The notes under the pieces: model-generated
Told to the model about the DNA's origin: nothing
What the model saw: the letters and a program-made list of their open reading frames with translations, nothing else
Database searches by the model: none
Made by a program: the position numbers and the translations under genes
Part shown: positions 5,888 through 31,999 of the stretch, piece by piece
How positions within the stretch are numbered: position 1 is the stretch's first letter
Layout of the letters: every line of letters starts with the position of its first letter
Origin: an uncultured archaeon
GTDB taxonomy: Archaea; Asgardarchaeota; Jordiarchaeia; Jordiarchaeales; Jordiarchaeaceae
DNA length: 32,000 nucleotides
NCBI GenBank assembly: GCA_964510585.1
Contig: CAZECW010000212.1
Span: forward strand, 1 to 32,000
Reading direction: 5' to 3'

Positions 5888-6670
5888 TTGTTTGAGGATG
5901 ACCTTGAGATGAAGGAGGAAACCCGTAGGGAGGTTAAACAGGCCATCATAGAATTTGCAGAGGCAAGTCTGAGTAGGGTTGAATTCACGGTTGAGGAGCT
6001 TAAAAGAGCTTTTCCATTTCACACTATATTCTTTCCCGATGAGGCTTTGCTGTCATTCAAGATACAGAGAAGTTTGGTAACGAGGATGGGTATGCGTCTT
6101 TATCCAGAAATAGCAGTAATAATTGCTAGGGATAATTTTGGTGGTGTGCACCGTAATTATCCGATTTCTGGCAGAATATTGGCGGATAGGGTGGGTGTGA
6201 TGGATCGGATTATAGATGAGTTGCGTTCTGGTAGGAGGAGCCCTAACCATGATGGCGAAATAAGAGAAATTTTCTCTGTGGCTGGTGGGAAACCGGTAGA
6301 AATATCCATTATTGCTGATTTATTTATAAGTGATTTTAGGCCGGGTCCGCTTTTCCTTGAAATTAAAAGTCCTAGGCCTAACTTGGATGTTTGCGCGGAG
6401 TCTAAGAAGAAGATGCTTTACTTCCAAGCATTATTTGAGGGTAAGAAGCCTGAGGCCTATCTTGCTTTTCCCTACAACCCTTTTGTTTACAGGGAAAAAT
6501 ACAATCATCGGTTCACCAAGCAAATCATGGATTTAGACAGGGAGGTCTTAATAGGAGAGGAAATGTGGGATAAGATTGGTGGTGCTGGAACCTACAAAGA
6601 ATTGTTGGAAATAGCTGATGAGGCGAAAAAGGAGATTTTGGGAAAGAATAAAAGGAATTTTGGCGATTAA
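5888..6670 (+). CDS. Type II restriction endonuclease, TdeIII/MjaII family (PD-(D/E)XK)
   Basis: IADLFIS...FLEIKSPRPN catalytic-like motif, AFPYNPF and IGEEMWDKIGG...YKELLEI segments typical of the family; adjacent to a DNA methyltransferase. Confidence 0.8.
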   Translation: MFEDDLEMKEETRREVKQAIIEFAEASLSRVEFTVEELKRAFPFHTIFFPDEALLSFKIQRSLVTRMGMRLYPEIAVIIARDNFGGVHRNYPISGRILADRVGVMDRIIDELRSGRRSPNHDGEIREIFSVAGGKPVEISIIADLFISDFRPGPLFLEIKSPRPNLDVCAESKKKMLYFQALFEGKKPEAYLAFPYNPFVYREKYNHRFTKQIMDLDREVLIGEEMWDKIGGAGTYKELLEIADEAKKEILGKNKRNFGD

Positions 6671-6683
6671 ATGTTTGGTTCTT

Positions 6684-7958
6684 TTATTCTACCTCATTAA
6701 TTTTCTTAAAGATTAGTATGTATTCATATCTCAGTCTAGCGTAACCGCCGAGGATGGGTCTTCTTATTATTTTGTCTAGGGTGAATCCAGCATTTTGGGC
6801 GAATTCTATGTACTTCCGGTGGATGGGGAGTTTCTTTTCTTTATAGGTGACGTCACCAATTATAGTTATACAGTACCTGTTGGGTTGTAAAACTTTGTTC
6901 ATCTCTTTAAAGGAATCTATCATGTCTTTATAGTAGTTATCTATTCTTTCGTCACCTTTTCCCCTTAGACCCACCATGTCTTTTACTAGGGCATCTGCGT
7001 TAATGTTCAAATAAGATAAGGCGTGCAGATCGTTTTTAATGTAGTCCACAGCTATGCTGTATGGTGGTGAGGTGATGATTCCGGCGAAGTACTCCCTAGG
7101 AAAAATTTCACTTAATTTTCTTGCGTCTCCTTCCAAAACTTCCACATTTCCGAGCTGAAAATCCAGTTTTTGCTTCAAGTCTTGGAATTTTTCAACAGTC
7201 TTCAGTATGGCGTCTAGGTTACTGTTGAAGCCCTCCCACAATGGTTTCTTAATGTAGGTATAATCAGATAGGGCATATAAATAGCATAATTGGTAGAATC
7301 GGTAAACCCGGTCATCGGATGTTAGTTTCGACTCATCCTCTAAGTTCTTAACGTATAACTCGAGATTTGAAGTTTTTCCAAGTACTCCTTTCGTTTTTCT
7401 GTTAAAATGGTGGAAAATCTTCTCCCTAGGAACCTCTTTTAGCATTTCAGTTGTGAGATCCAGAAGTTCACATTTTACTCTTGACATCAAAGTACATATT
7501 GGATTAATATCCACACCCCAACTGTCTACGCCTATCGTCTTAGCTTCAATAAGTGTCGTGCCACTACCAACAAAGGGGTCAAGAAGCCTATCTTCTCCCT
7601 TAAGCCCCATCCAGTTAATGAGAGCCTTTACCATCTGGGGATGAAATTTCGCTTTATACGGGTAGAACCAATGTGTTAAATATTGGCTTGTTCTACCAAT
7701 TTGCCCCTTTCCCTTAATATTTGAGATGTAATAGTGAAAAGATTTTTCGCCGTTTACCTCCTCAAAGTAGGCACACCTCCTCCTAAAAGCTTCTAGATCC
7801 CTCCACCAACTGGATAACTCCATCTTTGCAAGCTGAGCCTCATAAATAGAGCCAACATCGTCAAAAAGTTTAACATTTACAGGCTCAGGTATACCATTGA
7901 GAATCCAATCCATTATGGGTTCAGCCATGTACATGGTTGTCTTTTGATCTTCCACCAT
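6684..7958 (-). CDS. DNA methyltransferase, amino type (probably N4-cytosine, alpha motif order), cognate of the adjacent REase
   Basis: HWFYPYKAKFHPQ, SAM-binding LLDPFVGSGTTL, GVDINP, and catalytic IITSPPY located C-terminal to motif I. Confidence 0.9.
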   Translation of the reverse strand: MVEDQKTTMYMAEPIMDWILNGIPEPVNVKLFDDVGSIYEAQLAKMELSSWWRDLEAFRRRCAYFEEVNGEKSFHYYISNIKGKGQIGRTSQYLTHWFYPYKAKFHPQMVKALINWMGLKGEDRLLDPFVGSGTTLIEAKTIGVDSWGVDINPICTLMSRVKCELLDLTTEMLKEVPREKIFHHFNRKTKGVLGKTSNLELYVKNLEDESKLTSDDRVYRFYQLCYLYALSDYTYIKKPLWEGFNSNLDAILKTVEKFQDLKQKLDFQLGNVEVLEGDARKLSEIFPREYFAGIITSPPYSIAVDYIKNDLHALSYLNINADALVKDMVGLRGKGDERIDNYYKDMIDSFKEMNKVLQPNRYCITIIGDVTYKEKKLPIHRKYIEFAQNAGFTLDKIIRRPILGGYARLRYEYILIFKKINEVE

Positions 7959-8299
7959 CCTTAATTACCTCTATTCTCTTCAAAATCCTTCCATTACTGA
8001 TTTCCAAAGGCATTTCCTCTTTTTCAGGCTCTTTTAGGGTAAGTTTGAACAAAACCTACTAAAATATTTAATCGTAAAACTTCCAATTGCACTACCCCTA
8101 TAGAATTTTTAAATCCCACGTTAGATTATTAATTAGTGTCTCATTTTGAGACATTACCTTCCTTTTGATTTTGCGGAGACGAATGAGGAAATTCCCTACC
8201 CTAAAGATTATCCCCACAGGTGTCCTGATAATTCTCCCAGAAACATTCTCGCAGCTTTTCTGGTTAACCTTCCCTATTAAAGCTGCATAATCCCACAAC

Positions 8300-8611
8300 T
8301 TGTCATCATCCCTCTTCTTAACTAGCGTAACAGCTTTTGAACTCACGCTGGGAGCGAATCTCCCGTCAAAACGCGAAAAGAGAATAGTAGAAGTTGAAAG
8401 CCTACTTGATCAACATAACGTTCTTACCTTTACTCTTGAAGGTGCCAAAAAGGCAGCTGAAAAAGGGGCAGAATTAAGAGCTAAAGGTATATCTATAGAA
8501 ATTCGAGACCTCTTCAATGCTTCCATGTGCCTATTAAAGAAGATACCTTTCCTTACGGGGAACAAAGAACATTAGGAGCGAATCAAAGAGCTAATAGTGC
8601 TGACACCCTAA
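8300..8611 (+). pseudogene. vapC: VapC/PIN-domain toxin remnant (N-terminus missing, internal TAG at 8573-8575)
   Basis: TSVTAFELTLGA, AKKAAEKGAELRAKG, IEIRDLFNASMCL and LTGNKEH*ERIKEL match the PIN C-terminal two-thirds. An in-frame TAA at 8288-8290 lies upstream and no clear xDTx N-terminal motif is in frame. Confidence 0.7.
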
Positions 8612-8746
8612 CATGCCCCCCTCAAATTTAAAAAACGGAGCTTTCTTACCAAAACTCAACAAACAACGCTAGATATGGAAAGCATCGAGAAGGTGCAAAT
8701 CAGGAGGATGCGGCTATCATGAAAAATTTTTAATTGGGAAGTAGAA

Positions 8747-9172
8747 TTATTCTTCCAAAATGGCTAATCGTATTACGTCTGAGATTCCGTCGAAACCACT
8801 GTCGAAACTGTATATGGTTTTAATGTTTAGGTCTCTCATTACAGCCACGCTAATGGCGTCGGTGAAACTCAGCCGTTCATAAGTTTTAAATATTTGTATT
8901 CCAGCTTCAAAGTGTTTATTCTCAACTTTTATGAGTGTGAGTTTTGGAGAGGAAAGTATTGTGTCTAGGATTTCGATGGAAGCATTTGTACCCTTCTTTT
9001 TTCTAACAAATGTGACTATTTCGTCAAGAATATAATCGGTGATTACAGGTTTTCCCAAAATACCTTCTTCGACAGCATTGATGATTTCTTTACCTTCTTT
9101 GTGATGTTTTTCTTTAGGGAAAGATGCCGCTATGAACACCGTAGTATCCAAGAAGGGATTTTTAATGTTCAC
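8747..9172 (-). CDS. vapC: VapC PIN-domain ribonuclease toxin
   Basis: FLDTTVFIA, ITDYILDEIVT, SFTDAISVAVM, IYSFDSGFD: all four acidic PIN positions are present. Start overlaps the antitoxin stop by 11 nt. Confidence 0.92.
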   Translation of the reverse strand: MNIKNPFLDTTVFIAASFPKEKHHKEGKEIINAVEEGILGKPVITDYILDEIVTFVRKKKGTNASIEILDTILSSPKLTLIKVENKHFEAGIQIFKTYERLSFTDAISVAVMRDLNIKTIYSFDSGFDGISDVIRLAILEE

Positions 9173-9419
9173 CGCTGGCTACCTCATCGTGCTCTGAGAC
9201 AGAGTCAAACTCCTCTTCGGTGTCGTATTTTCCAATTATTTCTGTGAGCTTGGAGTTTTTCTTCAATGGCCTAATAAAAATTTCTTTACCAGTATCTATC
9301 CACACGATTTCGTCCCCAGGCCCCAAACCGTGCCTCTCCCTAGTTTCAGAGGGAACAGCGACCTGATACCCCTTCGAAATCCTCAACTTTTTAACCACCA
9401 CTGTCACAGGAATCACCAT
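9162..9419 (-). CDS. vapB: AbrB/MazE/SpoVT-family antitoxin (VapB)
   Basis: ISKGYQVAVPSETRERHGLGPGDEIVW swapped-hairpin motif, acidic C-terminus, directly upstream of vapC. Confidence 0.9.
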   Translation of the reverse strand: MVIPVTVVVKKLRISKGYQVAVPSETRERHGLGPGDEIVWIDTGKEIFIRPLKKNSKLTEIIGKYDTEEEFDSVSEHDEVASGEH

Positions 9420-9822: not shown

Positions 9823-10641
9823 CTACTTTAATTCTCTAACATTTATTTTTTCCAGATCCGCTATACCCAAACCCTTTTCCTGCGCCAGTTTCAAGTGTTT
9901 TACAGAGAGTGGGGCAACCCCTAATATACTTGCGCCTACTGCGTCAGCCGCCACAGGGTCTAGGGAGAATATCATTGCATTGAATTTTTTGGTTTCCCCT
10001 CCCAGTTCCCCCCTTATGTTTCCCTCTATTCCATCTATTATGGCTAGGTCTGGAGCCTTGTAGAGGTTTATGTCTACTATGCTTTGGTGTATTCCTTTGC
10101 TATGGAATCTTCCCTTGCTTCCGCCTATTGTTGCCCCCAGCATGTTTTTGAGTGAGAGGGTGACGCCAGCCTCACCGTGCACTTTTAGTACTGCAGCCGA
10201 AACCAGGTAGCAATCCTTTAATGTTAGGGGAAACTCATATTCTTTTAGCACTGAGGCTTGGGGGTTTCTTAGTTTCTCATATTGGTCATTGTTTAGATCT
10301 ACCAGTTTTACTCCATACTTTTCGGCTACTTGCTTGTAACCCAGGTCTCGGTAAGCTTTGTTTGTGTCCGCCCATCCTGAGCCCTCTGCAATGATTATTT
10401 CTTTGCTGTGTTTTTTGAGGTTTTTGATAATGGCTTCTACGGTTTTTGGGGTGGTGGTTGTGGGGTAGGGCTTATTTGCGATGAGGTTGGGTTTTATTAC
10501 AATTTTTGTCTGGGGAATTTTGGGGTTCAATTCTCTGAGGCCAACTGTCACCATTCTTTCTGGATCATTGCCTCTCACAACTATTACTAAGGGTCTGGGT
10601 TTGTCCTGTTTGGGGGTTGTGTTTTGGGTCATTTTCATCAT
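9823..10641 (-). CDS. DUF362 domain protein (true start ATG 10641, not 10953)
   Basis: IVIKPNL, IIIAEGSG, VKLVDLN, AVLKVH...TLSLKNMLG, DLAIIDGI, DPVAADA, KHLKLAQEKGLG. ATG lies 2 nt after the upstream stop; the 104 extra codons in the track overlap the upstream gene. Confidence 0.85.
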   Translation of the reverse strand: MMKMTQNTTPKQDKPRPLVIVVRGNDPERMVTVGLRELNPKIPQTKIVIKPNLIANKPYPTTTTPKTVEAIIKNLKKHSKEIIIAEGSGWADTNKAYRDLGYKQVAEKYGVKLVDLNNDQYEKLRNPQASVLKEYEFPLTLKDCYLVSAAVLKVHGEAGVTLSLKNMLGATIGGSKGRFHSKGIHQSIVDINLYKAPDLAIIDGIEGNIRGELGGETKKFNAMIFSLDPVAADAVGASILGVAPLSVKHLKLAQEKGLGIADLEKINVRELK

Positions 10642-10643
10642 TT

Positions 10644-12086
10644 TTACTTTATTCCGGCTACTCTTTTGGCTCTTTCCTTGTATTCTTGGAGCTGCTTCTG
10701 GTATTCTCCATAGATTATCATTCTTTGGGCTTGAAGTGAGCCTTCGCCGTGGAGTGCCAGTACCTCTATGCCCCCTCCTATGTCGGAGGCCATCCATATC
10801 CTTATTAGTTGAAGCATTCTGAGCCTGTGTTCTGTTGGTATTCCCTTTTTGCCCCCCAAATATTTGTCTATGTAGCCTCTTAATTCTGGGTTTTGGTAGT
10901 CTAGGTAGGTTGGGGCTGTGACTAGGATTCCGCCGCACAGATCTTGTACCCACTTTACGAAGTTGTGGTAGTTTTCGGCGAAGTGGTATTTGGATATGTT
11001 GCTTATTACCGGGTTGGGCACCGCTATTCCGCCATATATTACGGGGTCGCTGCAGGAGGCTTTGGCTAGGGATTTCAGCATTTCCAAATAGATTATCATG
11101 TTGGTTATTTTTTCTCTGACGTGTGAAATTTGGTCGATTCCATTGTATTCAGCTATGGCTTGAGCCATTCCCAATTGTAGCTCGGTTAGGGCGATTCTGT
11201 AGCAGGATGCTGTGTGTCTGTGGAAAAACGAGAAATTGTAGGCGATGGTTCCCGCATACTGCCATTCGCCGCAGAGGAAAACTCTCTCCCAAGGTATGAA
11301 AACGTCGTCAAAAACTAGCAGAGACTCGGTATGCATCCTTATGGGTACATCTACTGGAAACTCAAGGGGACTTTGCTGGTACCTGAGGGGGTGACATATG
11401 TGTTTCAGCCCCTTAGCGTTTGCGGGAACAGCAAAGCACACAGCGTAGTCTCTGTCTCCCTCCCTCATAGCTCTGCAGGGCAGGACGAGAATCTCATCGG
11501 AGTACGCCGAGGCGGTTATATGCATTTTTGCCCCTCTTACTATTATTCCTTCATCGTTTTTGTCCACTACTCGAACATAGAAATCGGGATGCGTCTGTTC
11601 AGGAGAGGAGGGGTGCTGGCTTCTATCCCCCTTCACATCTGTCATTCCGCAAGCTATGCTTAAATCTTTTTTTCTAACGTGTTCATAGTATTCGGTGATT
11701 CTCTCAATGTATTCCTCCTTTCCCATTACTTGGGAGGTTACCCAAATGGCGTTTAGACAGTCTCCAGCAACATCTTTTGTGAAGGGTATTACTCCGTCGC
11801 CCAGCCGGGTTGCAGTAACTATTAGCTCATGTCTTTTTAGTAGGTCTTCAGCGGTTTTGGGAAGATAGTAGTGTCTGCTTATCGGCTCCCCTGTTTCTGG
11901 ATGTTGCGCCACAGCTAGGTCTCGGTACTTGGGGTTCTCAGCCATTTCATAATCTAAAGCCGCGGTTTCAACACCCACTTTAAGCATAGGATGGGTGGTT
12001 ACATCATTCACCTTTTCTCCAAGGATCCAGACTTGTCGGCCGTCCCTTAAACCTTCCTTATACTGCTTTACGGTCCTTAAACCCAT
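10644..12086 (-). CDS. 4-hydroxybutyryl-CoA dehydratase / 4-hydroxyphenylacetate 3-hydroxylase family flavoprotein (AbfD/HpaB fold, atypical active site)
   Basis: MTDVKGDRS, VRGAKMHIT, DYAVCFAVPANAKG, LVFDDVFIPWERVFLCGE, HGEGSLQAQR, C-terminal AKRVAGIK; SD GGAGGTGA at 12094-12101. Confidence 0.9.
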   Translation of the reverse strand: MGLRTVKQYKEGLRDGRQVWILGEKVNDVTTHPMLKVGVETAALDYEMAENPKYRDLAVAQHPETGEPISRHYYLPKTAEDLLKRHELIVTATRLGDGVIPFTKDVAGDCLNAIWVTSQVMGKEEYIERITEYYEHVRKKDLSIACGMTDVKGDRSQHPSSPEQTHPDFYVRVVDKNDEGIIVRGAKMHITASAYSDEILVLPCRAMREGDRDYAVCFAVPANAKGLKHICHPLRYQQSPLEFPVDVPIRMHTESLLVFDDVFIPWERVFLCGEWQYAGTIAYNFSFFHRHTASCYRIALTELQLGMAQAIAEYNGIDQISHVREKITNMIIYLEMLKSLAKASCSDPVIYGGIAVPNPVISNISKYHFAENYHNFVKWVQDLCGGILVTAPTYLDYQNPELRGYIDKYLGGKKGIPTEHRLRMLQLIRIWMASDIGGGIEVLALHGEGSLQAQRMIIYGEYQKQLQEYKERAKRVAGIK

Positions 12087-12142
12087 AAAAATATCACCTC
12101 CAAACTTGAAAATTGTTTTCGATATGGTAGTACTTTAATCTT

Positions 12143-12213
12143 TTCACAATTTATAGTGAACAATCTAAAGACATAATAGGATGGTGTTTTCGACAATTTT
12201 CACTTCATAGTGA
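12143..12213. promoter_or_regulatory. Paired inverted-repeat operator candidates in the divergent promoter; the first overlaps the TATA box of the AbfD-like gene
   Basis: TTCAC-aatttata-GTGAA at 12143-12160 (minus strand reads TATAAA inside it) and TCACT-tcat-AGTGA at 12200-12213. Confidence 0.5.
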
Positions 12214-12354
12214 GTCTTCACAATGCCTTTTTAATCCAGAATCCTAAAATGGAGGGGCCAAAACTTAACTTTCGTCGGCAGGGATAAGTATAGTAAAATT
12301 TAAGTGTTTCGAAAAATACTTAAGGGCAAGTCTATTTGAATGTGAGGTTTTAAA

Positions 12355-13980
12355 ATGAAGATTTATAAGGGAGGCCATTTATATTATCCCGAAATTCCCT
12401 TCTTTGGAATATTGGATGATACTGTGGGGCGTTTCCCTGACAGGTATGCTTTTCTGCACCCCAAAAAAATTACCTACAGAGAGTTCGGTGAATCTGTGGA
12501 CAGGATAGCAACTGCTCTGGCGGATATTGGAGTTAGGAAGGGTGACAGGGTGATAATTTATTCACCCAACTGCATCGAGTGGGAGATTGCCTGCTTTGGA
12601 ATATCTAAGGCGGGCGGTGTCTTCGTTCCAATGAATCCCATGTTCCGAGAGTCCGAAGTTGAATACGAAATCAAAGACGCTGAGGCAGAAACCATAATTA
12701 TCCACGAAGGCATGTATCCGACCATTAAGAATGTTAAGGAAAAAGCAGGGCTAAAAAACATAATAGTTATTGGGCAAAAACAGCCAGACACATATTCCTT
12801 CAGCGAACTTCTGGAAAAATACAAGCCTAACCCACCAAAATACAAATATAATCCCAAAGAGGATCTTGCCGCACTCCTATATACAAGTGGAACTACGGGT
12901 CTACCAAAGGGGTCAATGCTTACACACTACAATCTGGTCGCAAACACTATCCAGTGGTCTAGCCACACTGACTTTAACGAAACCGATGTTTTCATAATAC
13001 TCATTCCACTCTACCACATATTTGGACTCGCATTATCCATGAATCTCACAATTTGGAACGGCGGAGCACAAGTTGTAATGTCCAGCTTCAACCCTGCAGA
13101 GTGGTGTGAACTTGTGGAGAAATATAAAGTGACCTACAGCCTCTGTGTACCACCCCTACTCAACCTGATAGTGAGACATCTTGAGAACCCACAAGTCAAG
13201 GGCTACGATTGGTCTTCTTTCCATGTGATGGCTAATGGGGCAGCGCCTGTCCCCACTGAGCTCGCCAAAAAGTTTGAAAAATTAGCGAAGGAAAAGTGTA
13301 GGGGGACAGAGGATCTTCTGGTTGGTCAGGGATGGGGGCTCTCTGAGGCAGCTCCGGTGGCTGCAAATCCCTTCCACAGGAATAGGTTAGACACTCAGGG
13401 AATACTTATGCCGGACACCTACCACAAGATAATAGATGTCTTGACAGGTGAGGAGCTGCCTGAACCTGGCCAGATGGGAGAAATAGTAATTAGGGGGCCC
13501 CAAGTTTTTAAGGGGTACTGGAAGAGACCGGAAGCCACGGAGCAAGCCTTCTGGACTGATCCAAAAACTGGACTGAAATGGTTCCGGACAGGTGACGTCG
13601 CATTTATAGATGAGGAAGGTTACGAACACTTGGTTGATAGGATGAAGGAGATGATAAAATATAAGGGCTACGCTATTGCACCAGCCGAACTTGAAGACCT
13701 ACTCTTCAAGCACCCCAAAGTATTGGATTGCGCCGTGATACCAAAGCCGGCACCCGACCCAGCGCTTGGAGAAATTCCCAAAGCATTCATAGTGCCCAAA
13801 CCCGAATATAAAGGCAAAATAACTGAGCAAGAAATAATTGACTGGGTGGCTGAGAGAATAGCTCCCTATAAAAAGATTAGGGAGGTAGAGTTTGTAGAGG
13901 GTATACCGAGGGTTATTACCGGAAAGATTCTCAGAAGAGACCTGATAAAGAGAGAACGCGAGAAAATGGGACTAAAATAA
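12355..13980 (+). CDS. AMP-forming acyl-CoA synthetase (long-chain fatty acid / 4-coumarate-CoA ligase-like)
   Basis: LLYTSGTTGLPKG, QGWGLSE, WFRTGDVA, DRMKEMIKYKG, PAELEDLL, GKILRR. Confidence 0.95.
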   Translation: MKIYKGGHLYYPEIPFFGILDDTVGRFPDRYAFLHPKKITYREFGESVDRIATALADIGVRKGDRVIIYSPNCIEWEIACFGISKAGGVFVPMNPMFRESEVEYEIKDAEAETIIIHEGMYPTIKNVKEKAGLKNIIVIGQKQPDTYSFSELLEKYKPNPPKYKYNPKEDLAALLYTSGTTGLPKGSMLTHYNLVANTIQWSSHTDFNETDVFIILIPLYHIFGLALSMNLTIWNGGAQVVMSSFNPAEWCELVEKYKVTYSLCVPPLLNLIVRHLENPQVKGYDWSSFHVMANGAAPVPTELAKKFEKLAKEKCRGTEDLLVGQGWGLSEAAPVAANPFHRNRLDTQGILMPDTYHKIIDVLTGEELPEPGQMGEIVIRGPQVFKGYWKRPEATEQAFWTDPKTGLKWFRTGDVAFIDEEGYEHLVDRMKEMIKYKGYAIAPAELEDLLFKHPKVLDCAVIPKPAPDPALGEIPKAFIVPKPEYKGKITEQEIIDWVAERIAPYKKIREVEFVEGIPRVITGKILRRDLIKREREKMGLK

Positions 13981-14209: not shown

Positions 14210-15028
14210 CTATTTTAGGAAGCATGCCCCCATCCCCTGTGCCCCTTTTATGCAAATCCACTCTTTATTTCCATATTTCTCAGCTTCCAGCTTTTCAGCC
14301 ATTGCTATTTCTTCTTGCGTGTAGGTAGACTGTTTAAATTTAGTGTTTAATGACTGTGCATATCCCTTAATTATGTTATTTACGATTGTGTTTTCGACGT
14401 AGAGGTGGTCTATACATTTTTGGTTGAGTTCCTTTTTGACCGTAGTGTACCCACTTTCCACTTTCTCCAGTAGGGAGGGGTTTATTTTTTCTTCGGGAAT
14501 GTTGATTACTTTTAGCATTGTTAGAATATCGTAGTCTATGAGTATTGTTGAGTGGAACAAGAATGTTGAAGAAGCTGCGTGGATTCCGCTTCCCGCAATT
14601 TTTTTGCCATTAACAATGATATCAGTGGTTTTATAGCAATATGCAGCATTTATGTTTAGAGATTTTAGTCCGAGAAGTACGCCTTTATTTAATAGTTCGA
14701 ATTTTTGCGAAACTTTTGAGGGATACGTTCCATCGTCTGAGATGATGAGGGTGATTCCGATTTGTGAATACCACTTGGGACACCCCATTATTATTGCGCC
14801 TCCCCCAGTCATTCTTCTTGTGAGGCTCATATTATTCCTCTCTATGAATTCAAGGTTGACGTCGCTTATGTCTTGGCTGTGTCCAATAACAACTGATGGA
14901 CGGGAGAAAAAATAGAATCTTAGGACATTTGGGGATTTATGCTCCTCCACTCTCCTCAATAAAGTTTCATCCAAGGCCAGACCCTTGGGGGCAGGGTAAG
15001 CCTTATCCTTGATAACACGCCACTCCAT
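14210..15028 (-). CDS. Lipoate-protein ligase / octanoyltransferase catalytic domain (LplA/sLplA-like, no fused C-terminal accessory domain)
   Basis: LALDETLL, NVLRFY, SVVIGHSQ, RRMTGGGA, DIIVNGKKIAGSG, FLFHSTILIDYD. Confidence 0.92.
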   Translation of the reverse strand: MEWRVIKDKAYPAPKGLALDETLLRRVEEHKSPNVLRFYFFSRPSVVIGHSQDISDVNLEFIERNNMSLTRRMTGGGAIIMGCPKWYSQIGITLIISDDGTYPSKVSQKFELLNKGVLLGLKSLNINAAYCYKTTDIIVNGKKIAGSGIHAASSTFLFHSTILIDYDILTMLKVINIPEEKINPSLLEKVESGYTTVKKELNQKCIDHLYVENTIVNNIIKGYAQSLNTKFKQSTYTQEEIAMAEKLEAEKYGNKEWICIKGAQGMGACFLK

Positions 15029-15046
15029 AAGTAAATCACCCCTTTT

Positions 15047-16126
15047 TCATTTTTCTTGTGCTTTAATATCCTTGAAAATTAGCGAACAGCAGTGGTCATT
15101 AAACTCCAATCTGAAACCCTTTTTCTCGGCGTAATCTGCTCCTTCCTGACTAATGAAGGCTATACCGTTAACTCCGGATTTAATAGCCAAAATGTCAGTG
15201 GAAATCTTATGAGCGCCCTTAGGGCGGGCGCAGCCCAGGATTATTGGTGTTTTCGGCAGTTTTATCCGGCTATATGTGATGATATTAGCTATACTAGCTG
15301 GTTTCGGTGGCACGGTGTCCTGCATTGGTGTGTTTTCTAATGGCATAAGCGCAACTATCACTAGGGCTTTGGGTTTGTATTTCGAAATCATATCAACAGC
15401 GTTTAACTCGCCAACAATTTTTCCGTAGTTTAGCCCTACGACAATGTGTGGAACACTTGGAATATTATACATGTCGAGTAGTTCGAGTGAACGTTCGAAA
15501 TCTCTTGTAGTTTTTTGTAAATGATACACTTTTCGGATAGTTTCATTGTCACCAATAATGTCAAGCATTACTGCATCGACCCCCACCTCAGCAAGGCTTG
15601 AAGCTAAATCTTGATTAATTAAACCAGTGTGCATAACTATGGATAAATCATATTTTTCTTTGATTTTTTTAAGAGTGGGGATGAATTTCAATAGTGGAAC
15701 GGTGCCGTCTAATCTTGATCCACCGCTAATTAGAATTCCCTCGGTTCCTTTACTCACAAAATTATTGATTAGGGCTTCTAGGCGTTCAGGGGTTTCGGCT
15801 GGAAACATTGATTCTAAAATTTGTCCTCTACAATGATCACATTGAAGCTGGCATTTACTTCCAGTGATACTTATTGGGCAAAATCTGAAATTATCTGCAG
15901 GTTTGTGTTGGTCGATGGAATAAGTTTGTATGGACGGTGAATAGCACCAGATACTTTTCCCAAAATTTTTAATTTTTATATCTAAAGCTTTCTTTTGTTC
16001 CACAATATTTAGTGTGGTGCTCAATGTTTTCCTTCCCTGCCGGCTGATCCTGTTAAAGTTTGGCTTTTTATGGGAAATCTTCAGCCAGATTAATCGTGGG
16101 GGCAGCTGGTTTGTTTGAGTAATCAA
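15047..16126 (-). CDS. lipS1: Radical SAM lipoyl synthase subunit LipS1-like (true start probably near 16000-16030)
   Basis: CQLQCDHC (CxxxCxxC), GILISGGS, PHIVVGL, C-terminal GCAR and CC motifs, which I recall as the LipS1 signature; next to a lipoate ligase. Confidence 0.8.
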   Translation of the reverse strand: MITQTNQLPPRLIWLKISHKKPNFNRISRQGRKTLSTTLNIVEQKKALDIKIKNFGKSIWCYSPSIQTYSIDQHKPADNFRFCPISITGSKCQLQCDHCRGQILESMFPAETPERLEALINNFVSKGTEGILISGGSRLDGTVPLLKFIPTLKKIKEKYDLSIVMHTGLINQDLASSLAEVGVDAVMLDIIGDNETIRKVYHLQKTTRDFERSLELLDMYNIPSVPHIVVGLNYGKIVGELNAVDMISKYKPKALVIVALMPLENTPMQDTVPPKPASIANIITYSRIKLPKTPIILGCARPKGAHKISTDILAIKSGVNGIAFISQEGADYAEKKGFRLEFNDHCCSLIFKDIKAQEK

Positions 16127-17246
16127 AAATTTGTTTCTTTATTATGGATATATCTTCCTGGTTTGGTTTAAATGGGAAGTTTCTCAACTCACCCATATAT
16201 GCTTGAAATGGTGTACAGTCGGAGTAGGGTCTGTTGCAAGCCACATCCAAAGTTTTACCGGGGCATCCAGTCGTCATAAACGGTGTCCCCTTTGAAATGT
16301 GAAGATCCAATTGCTCCGCGTCCAAACCATAATCTACTATTTGACCCAATTCGTTGAACTCCAGCTTTTCAAAATGGGTTAAATTGTTGGAAATCAAATA
16401 GGACAGTAACTGGATACGGCGGTACTGACCAATACTTGGTTGGGGGTGATTCTCCATAAGAGAAAAGGGCTCCGGAAAGAATGAGAATAAGTGAACTCGC
16501 GCCCCCATATCTATTATTTTTTGAATGAGAAATGCCATTTCGGATTCGGACTCGCCGAGACCCACTATTATGTGAACCCCAACATTTCCTGTTCCAAACA
16601 CATCAAGAGACTCTTTTATAACATTCCAGTAATGAGACCACTTATGCGGCCCCTTTACGCCCTTACCCCTCAATCTGTCAAACAATTCCGGCGTTGCAGC
16701 ATCAACAGCAACACCAACTTTGTCGCAGCCATGCTCTTTCAACTTGTTCAGCCAATTTCCCTTTATAATTGTTGGACAGATTAACGTAGAAATAAGATGT
16801 TTGGTCCGCGTTCTAATTCTTTCAACAACTGTAAGTGTATCGGCGCATGCTCTTGGATTTGTAACCATTGAAACACAAACCCGCTCAACATGAGCGCAAG
16901 AGGAGGAGTTCAACGCAGAAACAATTTTGTCCAATGAGTAAATCGGCCAATCTACGCGAATAAATGATTTGTCCCTAAAGTGTTCACCAACCTTTCTGCC
17001 ACGGCTCAAACCACAATACGCACAATTACCTCTACAACCTTCCTCATAAGTTAAAAGTAGATTAATACAGTACAGTTTAGCCCCACGATAAAATAAACCA
17101 TTTTCGAAACCTAAAGTCATCGCAGCAGCCAAACTCACCTGCAAGTAATCAGGACTTTCCAACAATGCATCCTCCTCAACAAACAAATCTAAACAACCTC
17201 CAAAATTCCAAGTTCTCCTTCCAATCAACTGTATAATAGTAATCAA
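16068..17246 (-). CDS. lipS2: Radical SAM lipoyl synthase subunit LipS2-like (true start probably TTG 17165)
   Basis: CRGNCAYC, FIRVDWP, HIIVGLGE, TTGCP...CNRP resembling the TxGCPxC(N/D)RP LipS2 motif; GAGGAGG SD just upstream of TTG 17165. Confidence 0.8.
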   Translation of the reverse strand: MITIIQLIGRRTWNFGGCLDLFVEEDALLESPDYLQVSLAAAMTLGFENGLFYRGAKLYCINLLLTYEEGCRGNCAYCGLSRGRKVGEHFRDKSFIRVDWPIYSLDKIVSALNSSSCAHVERVCVSMVTNPRACADTLTVVERIRTRTKHLISTLICPTIIKGNWLNKLKEHGCDKVGVAVDAATPELFDRLRGKGVKGPHKWSHYWNVIKESLDVFGTGNVGVHIIVGLGESESEMAFLIQKIIDMGARVHLFSFFPEPFSLMENHPQPSIGQYRRIQLLSYLISNNLTHFEKLEFNELGQIVDYGLDAEQLDLHISKGTPFMTTGCPGKTLDVACNRPYSDCTPFQAYMGELRNFPFKPNQEDISIIKKQIFDYSNKPAAPTINLAEDFP

Positions 17247-30547: not shown

Positions 30548-31999
30548 TTATGCTTTTTCTCCCTCGTATGCGCCCTGGAACTCTTTTCTGAGTACTTTTT
30601 TGAGGATTTTTCCGCTGGGATTCTTGGGAAGTGTATCCAGGATTATTACCTTTTTGGGTACTTTGTATCCTGCTAGGTTTTGTTTGCAGTATTGGATGAT
30701 TTCCTCTTCTGTTAGGGTTTGGTTTGGTTTGGGCACTACGAAGGCGGTGACTGCTTCCACCCATTTTGCATGTGGGAGACCAACCACGGTTGCTTCAGCT
30801 ACTTTGGGATGTCTGAATATTACTCCCTCAACTTCAACGGTTGAAACGTTTTCTGCTCCAGTTTTTACAATGTCCTTCTTTCTGTCTACAAAGTAGAAGT
30901 ATCCCTCTTCATCCATTATTCCTAGGTCTCCGGTGTGCAGCCACCCGTTTCTGAAGACTTCCGCGGTTTTCTTGGGTTCCTTGTAGTATCCCAGCATTAC
31001 GGAGGGGCTTCTAATAACCAGCTCTCCAATTGTTCCTGGGGGCACCTCATTATCATTCTCGTCAAACACCTTCATTTCCACGGTGTGGTGGGGTTGCCCT
31101 ATTGGTTCTGCTCCACCATACTTTTCATTTGCCTCCCTTAGTTTTCTTATGAAGTCGGGGTGCTGAATGGTTGTTCCCAGGGGTGTGGATTCGGACTGTC
31201 CATAATAATTCATGAAGTAAACGTTGGGGAGTAGTTCCATAAGTTTGGTCAGACTAGCCTCTGCTATGGGGGAGCCAAAAACGATGGCCTTCTTTACGCT
31301 TCCAAAGGCTTTACCCAGAAATTCAGCCAGATTAGGTATGTTTAGTGAGAGTAGGTTGGTGAAAACTGTTGGGGGATAAACTATGGATGTCACTTTCTCG
31401 TTCTGAATTAGGGAAATAATTTCTATGGGGCTGGGCTCATGGTGCATAATCACTCTGGCTCCCGCCGCCAGAGTTGCGAAAAATAGGTATTGTCCCGCTA
31501 CGTGGTAGAGGGGTATGGAGTCTATTACGGTGTCTTCCCTGGTCATGTGCAAATCTACTGGGGCGCTCATGAATGTGGAGTACCAATTGCCGTGGGTGTT
31601 GAGAACTCCCTTGGGCATAGCTTCTGTTCCACTGGTATACATGAGGGTTAAAACGTCATCCGCATTTATTATTACTTCGGGTTCAGTGTCTGGATACTTG
31701 TCTGACATAAGGTCGTCGAAATCGATCCAGCCTTTGGGAAGTTTCACTTCGTTCTTGAGGTTTATCATGCTGTATATTTTCACGCTGGGCATTTCTTTTG
31801 CGAGTTCCTTGACGTGTTCAACTAAATCGTCTTCTACGAAGAGAATTTTTGGCTTGGCGTGGTTTATTAGATCAGTAATCTCTTTTCCTCTAAGGGCAAA
31901 GTTTAGGGGGCATATCCAAGCTCCAATTTTCGCTATTCCGTAGAGGTACACTCCCATCTGTACACTGTTGTGCGAAATTATGCCTACAATGTCCCCCTT
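30548..31999 (-). CDS. AMP-forming acyl-CoA synthetase (5' truncated by the window edge)
   Basis: Frame is open to the window edge (KGDIVGIISHNSVQMGVY...); MYTSGTEAMPKG, NYYGQSE, WLHTGDLG, DRKKDIVKTG, NPSGKILK. Confidence 0.95.
   Translation of the reverse strand, partial: KGDIVGIISHNSVQMGVYLYGIAKIGAWICPLNFALRGKEITDLINHAKPKILFVEDDLVEHVKELAKEMPSVKIYSMINLKNEVKLPKGWIDFDDLMSDKYPDTEPEVIINADDVLTLMYTSGTEAMPKGVLNTHGNWYSTFMSAPVDLHMTREDTVIDSIPLYHVAGQYLFFATLAAGARVIMHHEPSPIEIISLIQNEKVTSIVYPPTVFTNLLSLNIPNLAEFLGKAFGSVKKAIVFGSPIAEASLTKLMELLPNVYFMNYYGQSESTPLGTTIQHPDFIRKLREANEKYGGAEPIGQPHHTVEMKVFDENDNEVPPGTIGELVIRSPSVMLGYYKEPKKTAEVFRNGWLHTGDLGIMDEEGYFYFVDRKKDIVKTGAENVSTVEVEGVIFRHPKVAEATVVGLPHAKWVEAVTAFVVPKPNQTLTEEEIIQYCKQNLAGYKVPKKVIILDTLPKNPSGKILKKVLRKEFQGAYEGEKA

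What the first reader, a model, noticed from the sequence alone, without database searches (positions are those of the whole stretch)
9823..13980. Cluster-less AbfD-fold flavoprotein + DUF362 + divergent CoA ligase: candidate unknown acyl-CoA pathway
Compared with Clostridium aminobutyricum 4-hydroxybutyryl-CoA dehydratase as I recall it: SCFQRCVGMD (Cys99/Cys103) becomes VIPFTKDVAGD; HRQSYGGCK (His292/Tyr296/Cys299) becomes HRHTASCYR; TESMHGAGS (Glu455) becomes VLALHGEGS. The Glu257 equivalent (HTESLLVFD) is kept. The RxxDY motif of HpaB monooxygenases is also absent. So the canonical [4Fe-4S] site and radical dehydratase chemistry appear lost, without gaining the monooxygenase signature. A DUF362 gene starts 2 nt downstream and an acyl-CoA ligase is transcribed divergently from a shared palindromic control region. 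Inference: a module that activates an acid and carries out an undescribed FAD-dependent reaction on its CoA ester.
Basis: partly seen in the sequence, partly recalled or inferred. Interest (0 to 1): 0.68.

Follow-up and report, generated by a model that had tools for sequence, protein, structure and literature searches.

The report
Cluster-free dehydratase relative with dehydrogenase glutamate
This Asgard archaeal enzyme looks like the iron-sulfur radical enzyme 4-hydroxybutyryl-CoA dehydratase but lacks the metal site and carries the catalytic glutamate of ordinary acyl-CoA dehydrogenases, so it marks an apparently unstudied, mis-annotated branch of that family; its two neighbouring genes are only local companions.

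Summary
The three genes are real; the host is Ca. Freyarchaeia/Jordarchaeia. The 480-aa HpaB/AbfD-fold protein has Pro101, Asp105 and Tyr296 where 4-hydroxybutyryl-CoA dehydratase (4HBD) has its three cluster cysteines. His292 is kept, and the HpaB RxxDY motif is absent. This Glu is invariant (121/121) and aligns with the acyl-CoA dehydrogenase catalytic base (MCAD Glu376) by profile alignment and by structural register. Glu448 and the CxxxC motif never co-occur in 99 family representatives. Best reading: a cluster-free FAD enzyme doing ACAD-type alpha-deprotonation of an acyl-CoA, either a dehydrogenase (~45%) or a redox-neutral isomerase/eliminase (~30%). The substrate is unknown. The three-gene module does not hold: the DUF362 link is confined to Freyarchaeia, the divergent ligase to four close genomes, and the palindromes are at chance level. 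Bacterial relatives sit among beta-oxidation genes. Whether the cluster was lost or never gained is unresolved. This scan noted the same Glu-bearing branch before on other DNA (e1-969837).

The parts
10644..12086 (-). 480-aa HpaB/AbfD-fold flavoprotein of the cluster-free Glu448 (H-G/A-E-G-S) branch, PFxxD subclade; core of the finding
   Evidence: Pfam HpaB_N 1e-86 and HpaB 2e-56; AlphaFold pLDDT 93; best fold match 1u8v Z 44.1, rmsd 2.6 over 471 residues; motif conservation
10743..10745 (-). Codon for Glu448, the proposed catalytic base (equivalent to MCAD Glu376 and to 4HBD Ala460)
   Evidence: 121/121 invariant; hhalign places it on the YEGT Glu of ACADs; C-terminal register offset 72 to five MCAD structures
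9823..10632 (-). Stand-alone DUF362 protein (269 aa from the conserved ATG; other ATGs at 10641 and 10638), one Cys, no ferredoxin domain; probably co-transcribed; linked only in Freyarchaeia
   Evidence: Pfam DUF362 7e-45; start conservation; 64-67% orthologs lie in unrelated contexts
12087..12354 (.). 268-nt divergent intergenic region; by eye two back-to-back BRE/TATA-like promoters; palindromes at chance level
   Evidence: Alignment with relatives and shuffles; repeats. The promoter reading is by eye and was not tested with an archaeal tool.
12355..13980 (+). 541-aa AMP-forming acyl-CoA ligase (FadD-like, below all NCBIfam cut-offs shown); divergent neighbour in only 4 closely related genomes
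   Evidence: Pfam AMP-binding 2e-92; NCBIfam; linkage

Best explanation
The 480-aa protein is a cluster-free, FAD-containing enzyme built on the 4HBD/HpaB scaffold that performs acyl-CoA-dehydrogenase chemistry. Glu448 in the J/K loop removes the alpha-proton of an acyl-CoA, the beta-hydrogen passes as hydride to FAD N5, and the electrons leave via ETF or another carrier (or the reaction runs in reverse as an enoyl-CoA reductase). It serves anaerobic beta-oxidation-type breakdown of a specific acid, probably one with a polar or branched tail. SHOWN: the fold, absence of the three Cys ligands, invariance and position of Glu448, conserved flavin-binding motifs, and the neighbourhood bias of relatives. 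INFERRED: FAD binding, a CoA-ester substrate, the catalytic role of Glu448, net redox and the electron acceptor. DUF362 and the ligase are local neighbours, not required parts.
For: Glu448-Gly-Ser is invariant in 121/121 top homologs. hhalign of the family against an ACAD profile (prob 96%) pairs H-G-E448-G-S-L-Q-A-Q-R-M with I-Y-E-G-T-S-E-V-Q-R-M, and pairs Thr191, Asp150 and Gly385 with the ACAD flavin motifs. VIA end registers for five MCAD chains (3mdd, 4p13, 1t9g 467<->395; 1egd 468<->396; 1udy 465<->393) all give offset 72, i.e. 448<->376, assuming no gap in the last helix. Glu376 is the MCAD base, in the J/K loop (PMC11153573), and Glu448 lies between helices 439-447 and 451-461 of the model. 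Among 99 full-length representatives at 50% identity: 21 have Glu without CxxxC, 42 have CxxxC without Glu, 0 have both. 23/33 subclade loci carry ligase, ACAD, 3-hydroxyacyl-CoA dehydrogenase, thiolase, ChsH2 or MaoC genes; DegV lies directly upstream in three 63-67% relatives. The genome encodes an ETF.
Against: There is no biochemistry. ETF genes lie near only 1 locus searched. The genome already has 16 ACAD-domain matches. His289 (the 4HBD His292) and a subclade-specific polar set (Asp105, Asp109, His252, Thr292, Tyr296) are strictly kept, more than plain dehydrogenation needs. The loci are related, so neighbour counts are not independent, and cluster-type controls also have such neighbours in 5/13 loci. 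Some HpaB-side proteins also have Glu at this position (P0208, P0237, P0263). The structural equivalence rests on range ends, not on a residue-level superposition.
Confidence: 0.45

Rival explanations
1. Same Glu448 alpha-deprotonation but net redox-neutral: a delta3->delta2 enoyl-CoA isomerase, or an eliminase/dehydratase using FAD transiently or structurally, with His289 as the second acid/base. Comparable to the vinylacetyl-CoA isomerase activity of 4HBD, or to BbuA.
For: His289 is kept in 17/18 Glu-branch and 33/33 cluster-branch representatives. ETF is almost never adjacent. In Desulfomonile/Syntrophaceae/Chloroflexota loci the gene sits beside genuine ACADs plus CrtI-like, SDR and FabK-like flavoenzymes, which looks like an auxiliary set. 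BbuA shows that ACAD-fold enzymes can catalyse eliminations (10.1101/2021.01.25.428109).
Against: 4HBD Glu455 and Tyr296, needed for dehydration (10.1101/2020.02.05.935528), are replaced. The flavin-redox residues Thr191 and acid-254 are retained. No conserved CoA-transferase or leaving-group gene was found.
Confidence: 0.3
2. An alternative ligand set (His289, Asp105, Cys295, Cys110) rebuilds a [4Fe-4S] site and the enzyme is still a 4-hydroxyacyl-CoA dehydratase.
For: His289 is kept and Asp105 is invariant at the Cys103 position. Cys295 has the H-x5-C spacing of the Nitrosopumilus enzyme.
Against: Cys295 is present in 10/121 and Cys110 in 3/121 homologs; Tyr296 occupies the Cys299 site in 121/121. 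Grouping with canonical 4HBD is rejected (AU p=1.8e-5). The genome already has a canonical 4HBD on contig C107.
Confidence: 0.06
3. An HpaB-like FADH2/O2-dependent monooxygenase with an altered substrate pocket.
For: Same fold (Z 39-42 to HpaB-type chains).
Against: Arg100, Tyr104 and His142 of HpaB are absent. TIGR02309 scores 223 against a cut-off of 480. Close relatives are from anaerobic lineages. No flavin reductase is adjacent in the window or in the Pfam-annotated loci read.
Confidence: 0.05
4. The first reader's module: ligase, flavoprotein and DUF362 form one obligatory pathway.
For: DUF362 follows the gene in all 7 Freyarchaeia loci and was duplicated together with it. The divergent ligase is present in 4 genomes. 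AMP ligases of other subtypes lie near 17/33 subclade loci.
Against: The complete genome G005 has two flavoprotein copies and no ortholog of this ligase (best hit 63%, the paralog); G002 has the 91% ortholog on another contig. Lokiarchaeial orthologs lack DUF362 in the DNA held. DUF362 orthologs at 64-67% identity lie in unrelated contexts. DUF362 genes near bacterial members are only 29-31% identical and not adjacent in line.
Confidence: 0.12

Closest known systems
[quoted passage not shown]
   Same: Whole fold (Z 44.1, rmsd 2.6 over 471 residues; ~31% identity), length, FAD-binding motifs, and the Thr190, Glu257 and His292 equivalents.
   Different: Cys99/103/299 are Pro/Asp/Tyr; Tyr296 is Ala; Glu455 is Leu; Ala460 is Glu. 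It lies outside the 100*-supported clade that holds all CxxxC proteins.
Acyl-CoA dehydrogenases of the MCAD/SCAD type (Glu376 in the J/K loop)
   Same: Superfamily fold (Z 21-22), Glu at the catalytic-base position in an E-G-S/T-x-x-x-Q-R motif, N5-contacting Thr, helix-G Arg equivalent (Arg297, weaker alignment).
   Different: 12-17% identity; about 100 residues longer, with the AbfD/HpaB N-terminus and insertions; only a sub-threshold hit to Acyl-CoA_dh_M and none to the N or C Pfam domains; activity untested.
HpaB-type group D flavin monooxygenases (T. thermophilus HpaB 2YYG, HadA, TftD, SgcC)
   Same: Fold (Z 39-42), no iron-sulfur cluster, the Asp of RxxDY.
   Different: Arg, Tyr and His substrate/catalytic residues absent; far below TIGR02309/02310 cut-offs; no adjacent HpaC.
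Archaeoglobaceae 4HBD homologs (AF0333/AF0885/AF1027 type)
   Same: Same Pfam pair; multi-copy in acyl-CoA-rich anaerobes (PMC3949148).
   Different: All 30 Archaeoglobaceae copies read keep CxxRC plus the later Cys and have Ala or Gly at position 448, so the target is not of this type.

Membership tests
4-hydroxybutyryl-CoA dehydratase (AbfD) | [4Fe-4S] ligands Cys99, Cys103, Cys299 | tested here: not met
   Pro101, Asp105, Tyr296, each 121/121
4-hydroxybutyryl-CoA dehydratase (AbfD) | His292 ligand; Thr190/Glu257 dyad | tested here: met
   His289 120/121; Thr/Ser191; Asp/Glu254 121/121
4-hydroxybutyryl-CoA dehydratase (AbfD) | Tyr296 and Glu455 | tested here: not met
   Ala293 and Leu443
4-hydroxybutyryl-CoA dehydratase (AbfD) | Groups with canonical 4HBD in a tree | tested here: not met
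   Outside the 100* cluster clade; AU p=1.8e-5
HpaB monooxygenase | RxxDY motif and His142 | tested here: not met
   F-T-K-D-V and Cys146
HpaB monooxygenase | TIGR02309/02310 cut-off | tested here: not met
   223/480 and 143/885 bits
HpaB/AbfD superfamily (PF11794+PF03241) | Both Pfam domains above cut-off, whole-fold match | tested here: met
Acyl-CoA dehydrogenase (MCAD type) | Catalytic Glu in the J/K loop | tested here: met
   Glu448 by hhalign and VIA end register
Acyl-CoA dehydrogenase (MCAD type) | Pfam Acyl-CoA_dh_N/M/1 above cut-off | tested here: not met
   Only Acyl-CoA_dh_M, 25.8 against a cut-off of 33.3
Acyl-CoA dehydrogenase (MCAD type) | alpha,beta-dehydrogenation of an acyl-CoA with bound FAD and ETF as acceptor | not testable with these tools
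   Needs an enzyme assay; ETF is present in the genome but not linked
Conserved three-gene module | DUF362 and ligase linkage kept across lineages | tested here: not met

The most novel reading that the evidence does not exclude
The Glu448 proteins are a surviving ancestral grade: true acyl-CoA dehydrogenase-type enzymes on the enlarged AbfD/HpaB scaffold. From them the radical [4Fe-4S] dehydratases (gain of three Cys, loss of the Glu) and the HpaB monooxygenases arose separately, so they would be the link between ACADs and both specialised families.
Probability: 0.3. Interest if true: 0.78.

Novelty: new variant of a known kind. Interest (0 to 1): 0.55.

Why it matters
I found no solved structure or paper for this branch (limited library), yet it spans Asgard archaea, Desulfobacterota, Chloroflexota, Acidobacteriota, Bacillota and Vulcanisaeta. 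Databases name many members '4-hydroxybutyryl-CoA dehydratase', the marker gene of the 4-hydroxybutyrate carbon-fixation cycles, so they can produce false autotrophy calls in MAGs. The motif pair CxxRC versus H-G/A-E-G-S separates the two types. One residue gives a direct test (E448Q) and a route to asking how radical dehydratases and flavin monooxygenases relate to acyl-CoA dehydrogenases.

Tried and rejected
Alternative Cys ligands (Cys110, Cys295): not conserved. Palindromic operator: chance level and not conserved. The sigma-70 promoter scan is unsuitable for archaea. Rooting with ACADs: the free tree roots among the Glu proteins, but the ACAD columns were mapped through a profile biased to the target's subclade, and AU tests reject neither a root on the cluster branch (p=0.52) nor inside it (p=0.45), so the direction is unresolved. 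DUF362: no PDB relative by sequence; the Atlas returns only DUF362; the literature says only that it shares clan CL0471 with LarA/DUF2088 (PMC11770544). RNA runs: none was listed. The 4HBD structure and mutagenesis papers (Martins 2004, Zhang 2015) were not held, so the role of Ala460 in 4HBD rests on my own knowledge. Paper searches found no characterised member. No complex prediction was sent, because I do not claim binding.
Full report
Setting. The window is contig C212 of a 3.78-Mb genome. Its nearest relatives are Ca. Freyarchaeota/Jordarchaeia (90-98%) and the complete SRVP19 Freyarchaeia chromosome (81%). The finding spans three genes: DUF362 (9823-10632, -), a 480-aa HpaB_N/HpaB protein (10644-12086, -) and a divergent AMP-forming ligase (12355-13980, +).

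Observation. Aligned to 1u8v (numbering), Cys99, Cys103 and Cys299 are Pro101, Asp105 and Tyr296; Tyr296 is Ala293 and Glu455 is Leu443. His292, Thr190 and Glu257 are kept as His289, Thr191 and Glu254. In the target plus its 120 best homologs, Pro101, Asp105 and Tyr296 are 121/121 and His289 is 120/121, whereas Cys295 (10/121) and Cys110 (3/121) are not conserved, so an alternative cysteine set is unlikely. The HpaB residues Arg100, Tyr104 and His142 are absent and the HpaB models score far below cut-off. The AlphaFold model (pLDDT 93) matches 4HBD best (Z 44.1), then HpaB-type enzymes (Z 39-42), then ACADs (Z 21-22). The genome also holds four cysteine-bearing paralogs, one of them a canonical 4HBD on C107.

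4HBD Ala460 is Glu448 here, in H-G/A-E-G-S, with E-G-S invariant. Profile-profile alignment to ACADs from this genome and related loci puts Glu448 on the YEGT glutamate and matches the following Q-R-M helix (prob 96%; posterior 0.64-0.73 for positions 448-455). The structural range ends for five MCAD chains give a constant offset of 72, which maps 448 to 376 if the last helix is ungapped. Glu376 is the MCAD catalytic base in the J/K loop (PMC11153573). Among 99 full-length representatives at 50% identity, 21 have this Glu and no CxxxC, 42 have CxxxC and no Glu, and none has both. That the Glu acts as base is inference; nothing was assayed.

Phylogeny. With the motif columns removed, all CxxxC proteins fall in one clade (SH-aLRT 100). 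The Glu proteins lie outside it, between that clade and the HpaB side. Grouping the target's subclade with canonical 4HBD is rejected (p=1.8e-5). All 30 Archaeoglobaceae homologs read are cysteine-type. ACADs have the Glu and no cluster, so parsimony favours 'cluster never gained'. However, ACAD rooting is biased and AU tests do not reject other roots, so neither loss nor retention is shown. Sampling was ranked by similarity to the target's profile. In 301 Asgard genomes this subclade was found in the six genomes of the host genus and in two others, and not in the five searched genomes of the sister family. Its next relatives are bacterial.

Neighbours. DUF362 follows the gene in the window and in six other Freyarchaeia loci. 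In two of these the pair was duplicated, and the first DUF362 copy decayed to a remnant, so co-transcription is likely. But lokiarchaeial orthologs lack it in the DNA held, DUF362 orthologs at 64-67% lie in unrelated contexts, and the five DUF362 genes near bacterial members are 29-31% identical and not adjacent in line. It has 0-2 Cys in most orthologs, so it is not an iron-sulfur carrier. The ligase is divergent in four genomes only; G002 has it elsewhere and the complete genome G005 lacks the ortholog. The intergenic palindromes do not exceed shuffles. What recurs is acyl-CoA catabolism: of 33 subclade loci of at least 10 kb, 23 hold a ligase, ACAD, 3-hydroxyacyl-CoA dehydrogenase, thiolase, ChsH2 or MaoC gene, 21 an SDR, 15 a CrtI-like flavoprotein (usually directly upstream) and 14 a FabK-like enzyme. 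These loci are related, and cysteine-type controls score 5/13, so this is moderate support. ETF is encoded in the genome but lies near only one locus.

Mechanism. Most likely (0.45): bound FAD, Glu448 removes the alpha-proton of an acyl-CoA, hydride goes to N5, and ETF or another carrier reoxidises the flavin. Main rival (0.30): the same first step with a redox-neutral outcome (isomerisation or elimination), using the retained His289 and the subclade's polar residues; BbuA is a precedent for elimination on this superfamily fold. A rebuilt cluster (0.06) and a monooxygenase (0.05) are unlikely. The substrate cannot be named.

Verdict. This is a member of the HpaB/AbfD superfamily that is neither a 4HBD nor an HpaB, and it most plausibly works like an ACAD: a new variant of a known kind. 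No characterised member turned up in the PDB or in the papers searched. I noted the Glu reading before finding that an earlier agent had reached it on another genome (e1-969837); that agreement is not independent evidence. The enzyme branch is the interesting part; the three-gene module is local. Interest 0.55.

Noticed in passing
L025:11443-11776 and L103:6594-6956: Between the tandem copies of the Glu-type gene lies a decayed 5' remnant of DUF362, so the two-gene unit was duplicated and one DUF362 copy was lost.
   Followed up: partly
L024:39-2549, L025:7415-9898, L103:2338-5059; homologs at own genome C113:46588-47730 and C202:17463-18596: Two paralogous 385-410-aa proteins (no Pfam hit for either; no NCBIfam hit for the one scanned) precede the flavoprotein in three Freyarchaeia loci, where the ligase sits in the others.
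   Followed up: partly
own genome C107:1314-2756, C48:6841-8265, C85:2253-3692, C29:8707-10149: Four cysteine-bearing AbfD paralogs. C107 is canonical; the other three keep the cluster ligands but lack the Glu455 equivalent, so they may act on other substrates.
   Followed up: partly
L027, L028, L031, L034, L037, L038, L041, L042, L175: A conserved Desulfomonile/Syntrophaceae operon: sigma-54 activator, CrtI-like ~527-aa flavoprotein, Glu-type enzyme, SDR, Liv-type ABC transporter with ligase, FabK-like enzyme, ACAD. The best lead for a substrate.
   Followed up: partly
L104:4971-7303, L109:7076-9434, L110:6391-8766: DegV (fatty-acid-binding) gene directly upstream of 63-67% identical homologs.
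   Followed up: no
L101:10001-16776 and L244: The lokiarchaeial ortholog (76%) is followed by hydantoinase A/B and acetone-carboxylase gamma genes.
   Followed up: no
L105, L108, L071: A Glu-type gene lies close to a second AbfD/HpaB-family gene in the same locus (cysteine-type in L071).
   Followed up: no
P0132/P0148/P0191, P0151/P0164/P0170/P0230, P0137/P0155/P0213, P0208/P0237/P0263: Further branches of the superfamily with neither CxxxC nor the Glu, and HpaB-side proteins with F-A/S-E-G-S/P; they look uncharacterised.
   Followed up: partly
window 14210-17246 (-): LplA-type ligase plus two radical SAM genes; from memory this resembles the LipS1/LipS2 lipoate assembly route. Only Pfam was checked.
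   Followed up: no
window 5888-9400: Restriction-modification pair (DNA methylase 6684-7958 with a convergent gene; HinfI-like in L103) and a PIN toxin (8747-9172) with a small AbrB-like gene read by eye just upstream.
   Followed up: no
window 30548-31957 (-): A second AMP-binding ligase (29% identical to the first) that runs past the window end; about 20 such ligases are in the genome.
   Followed up: no
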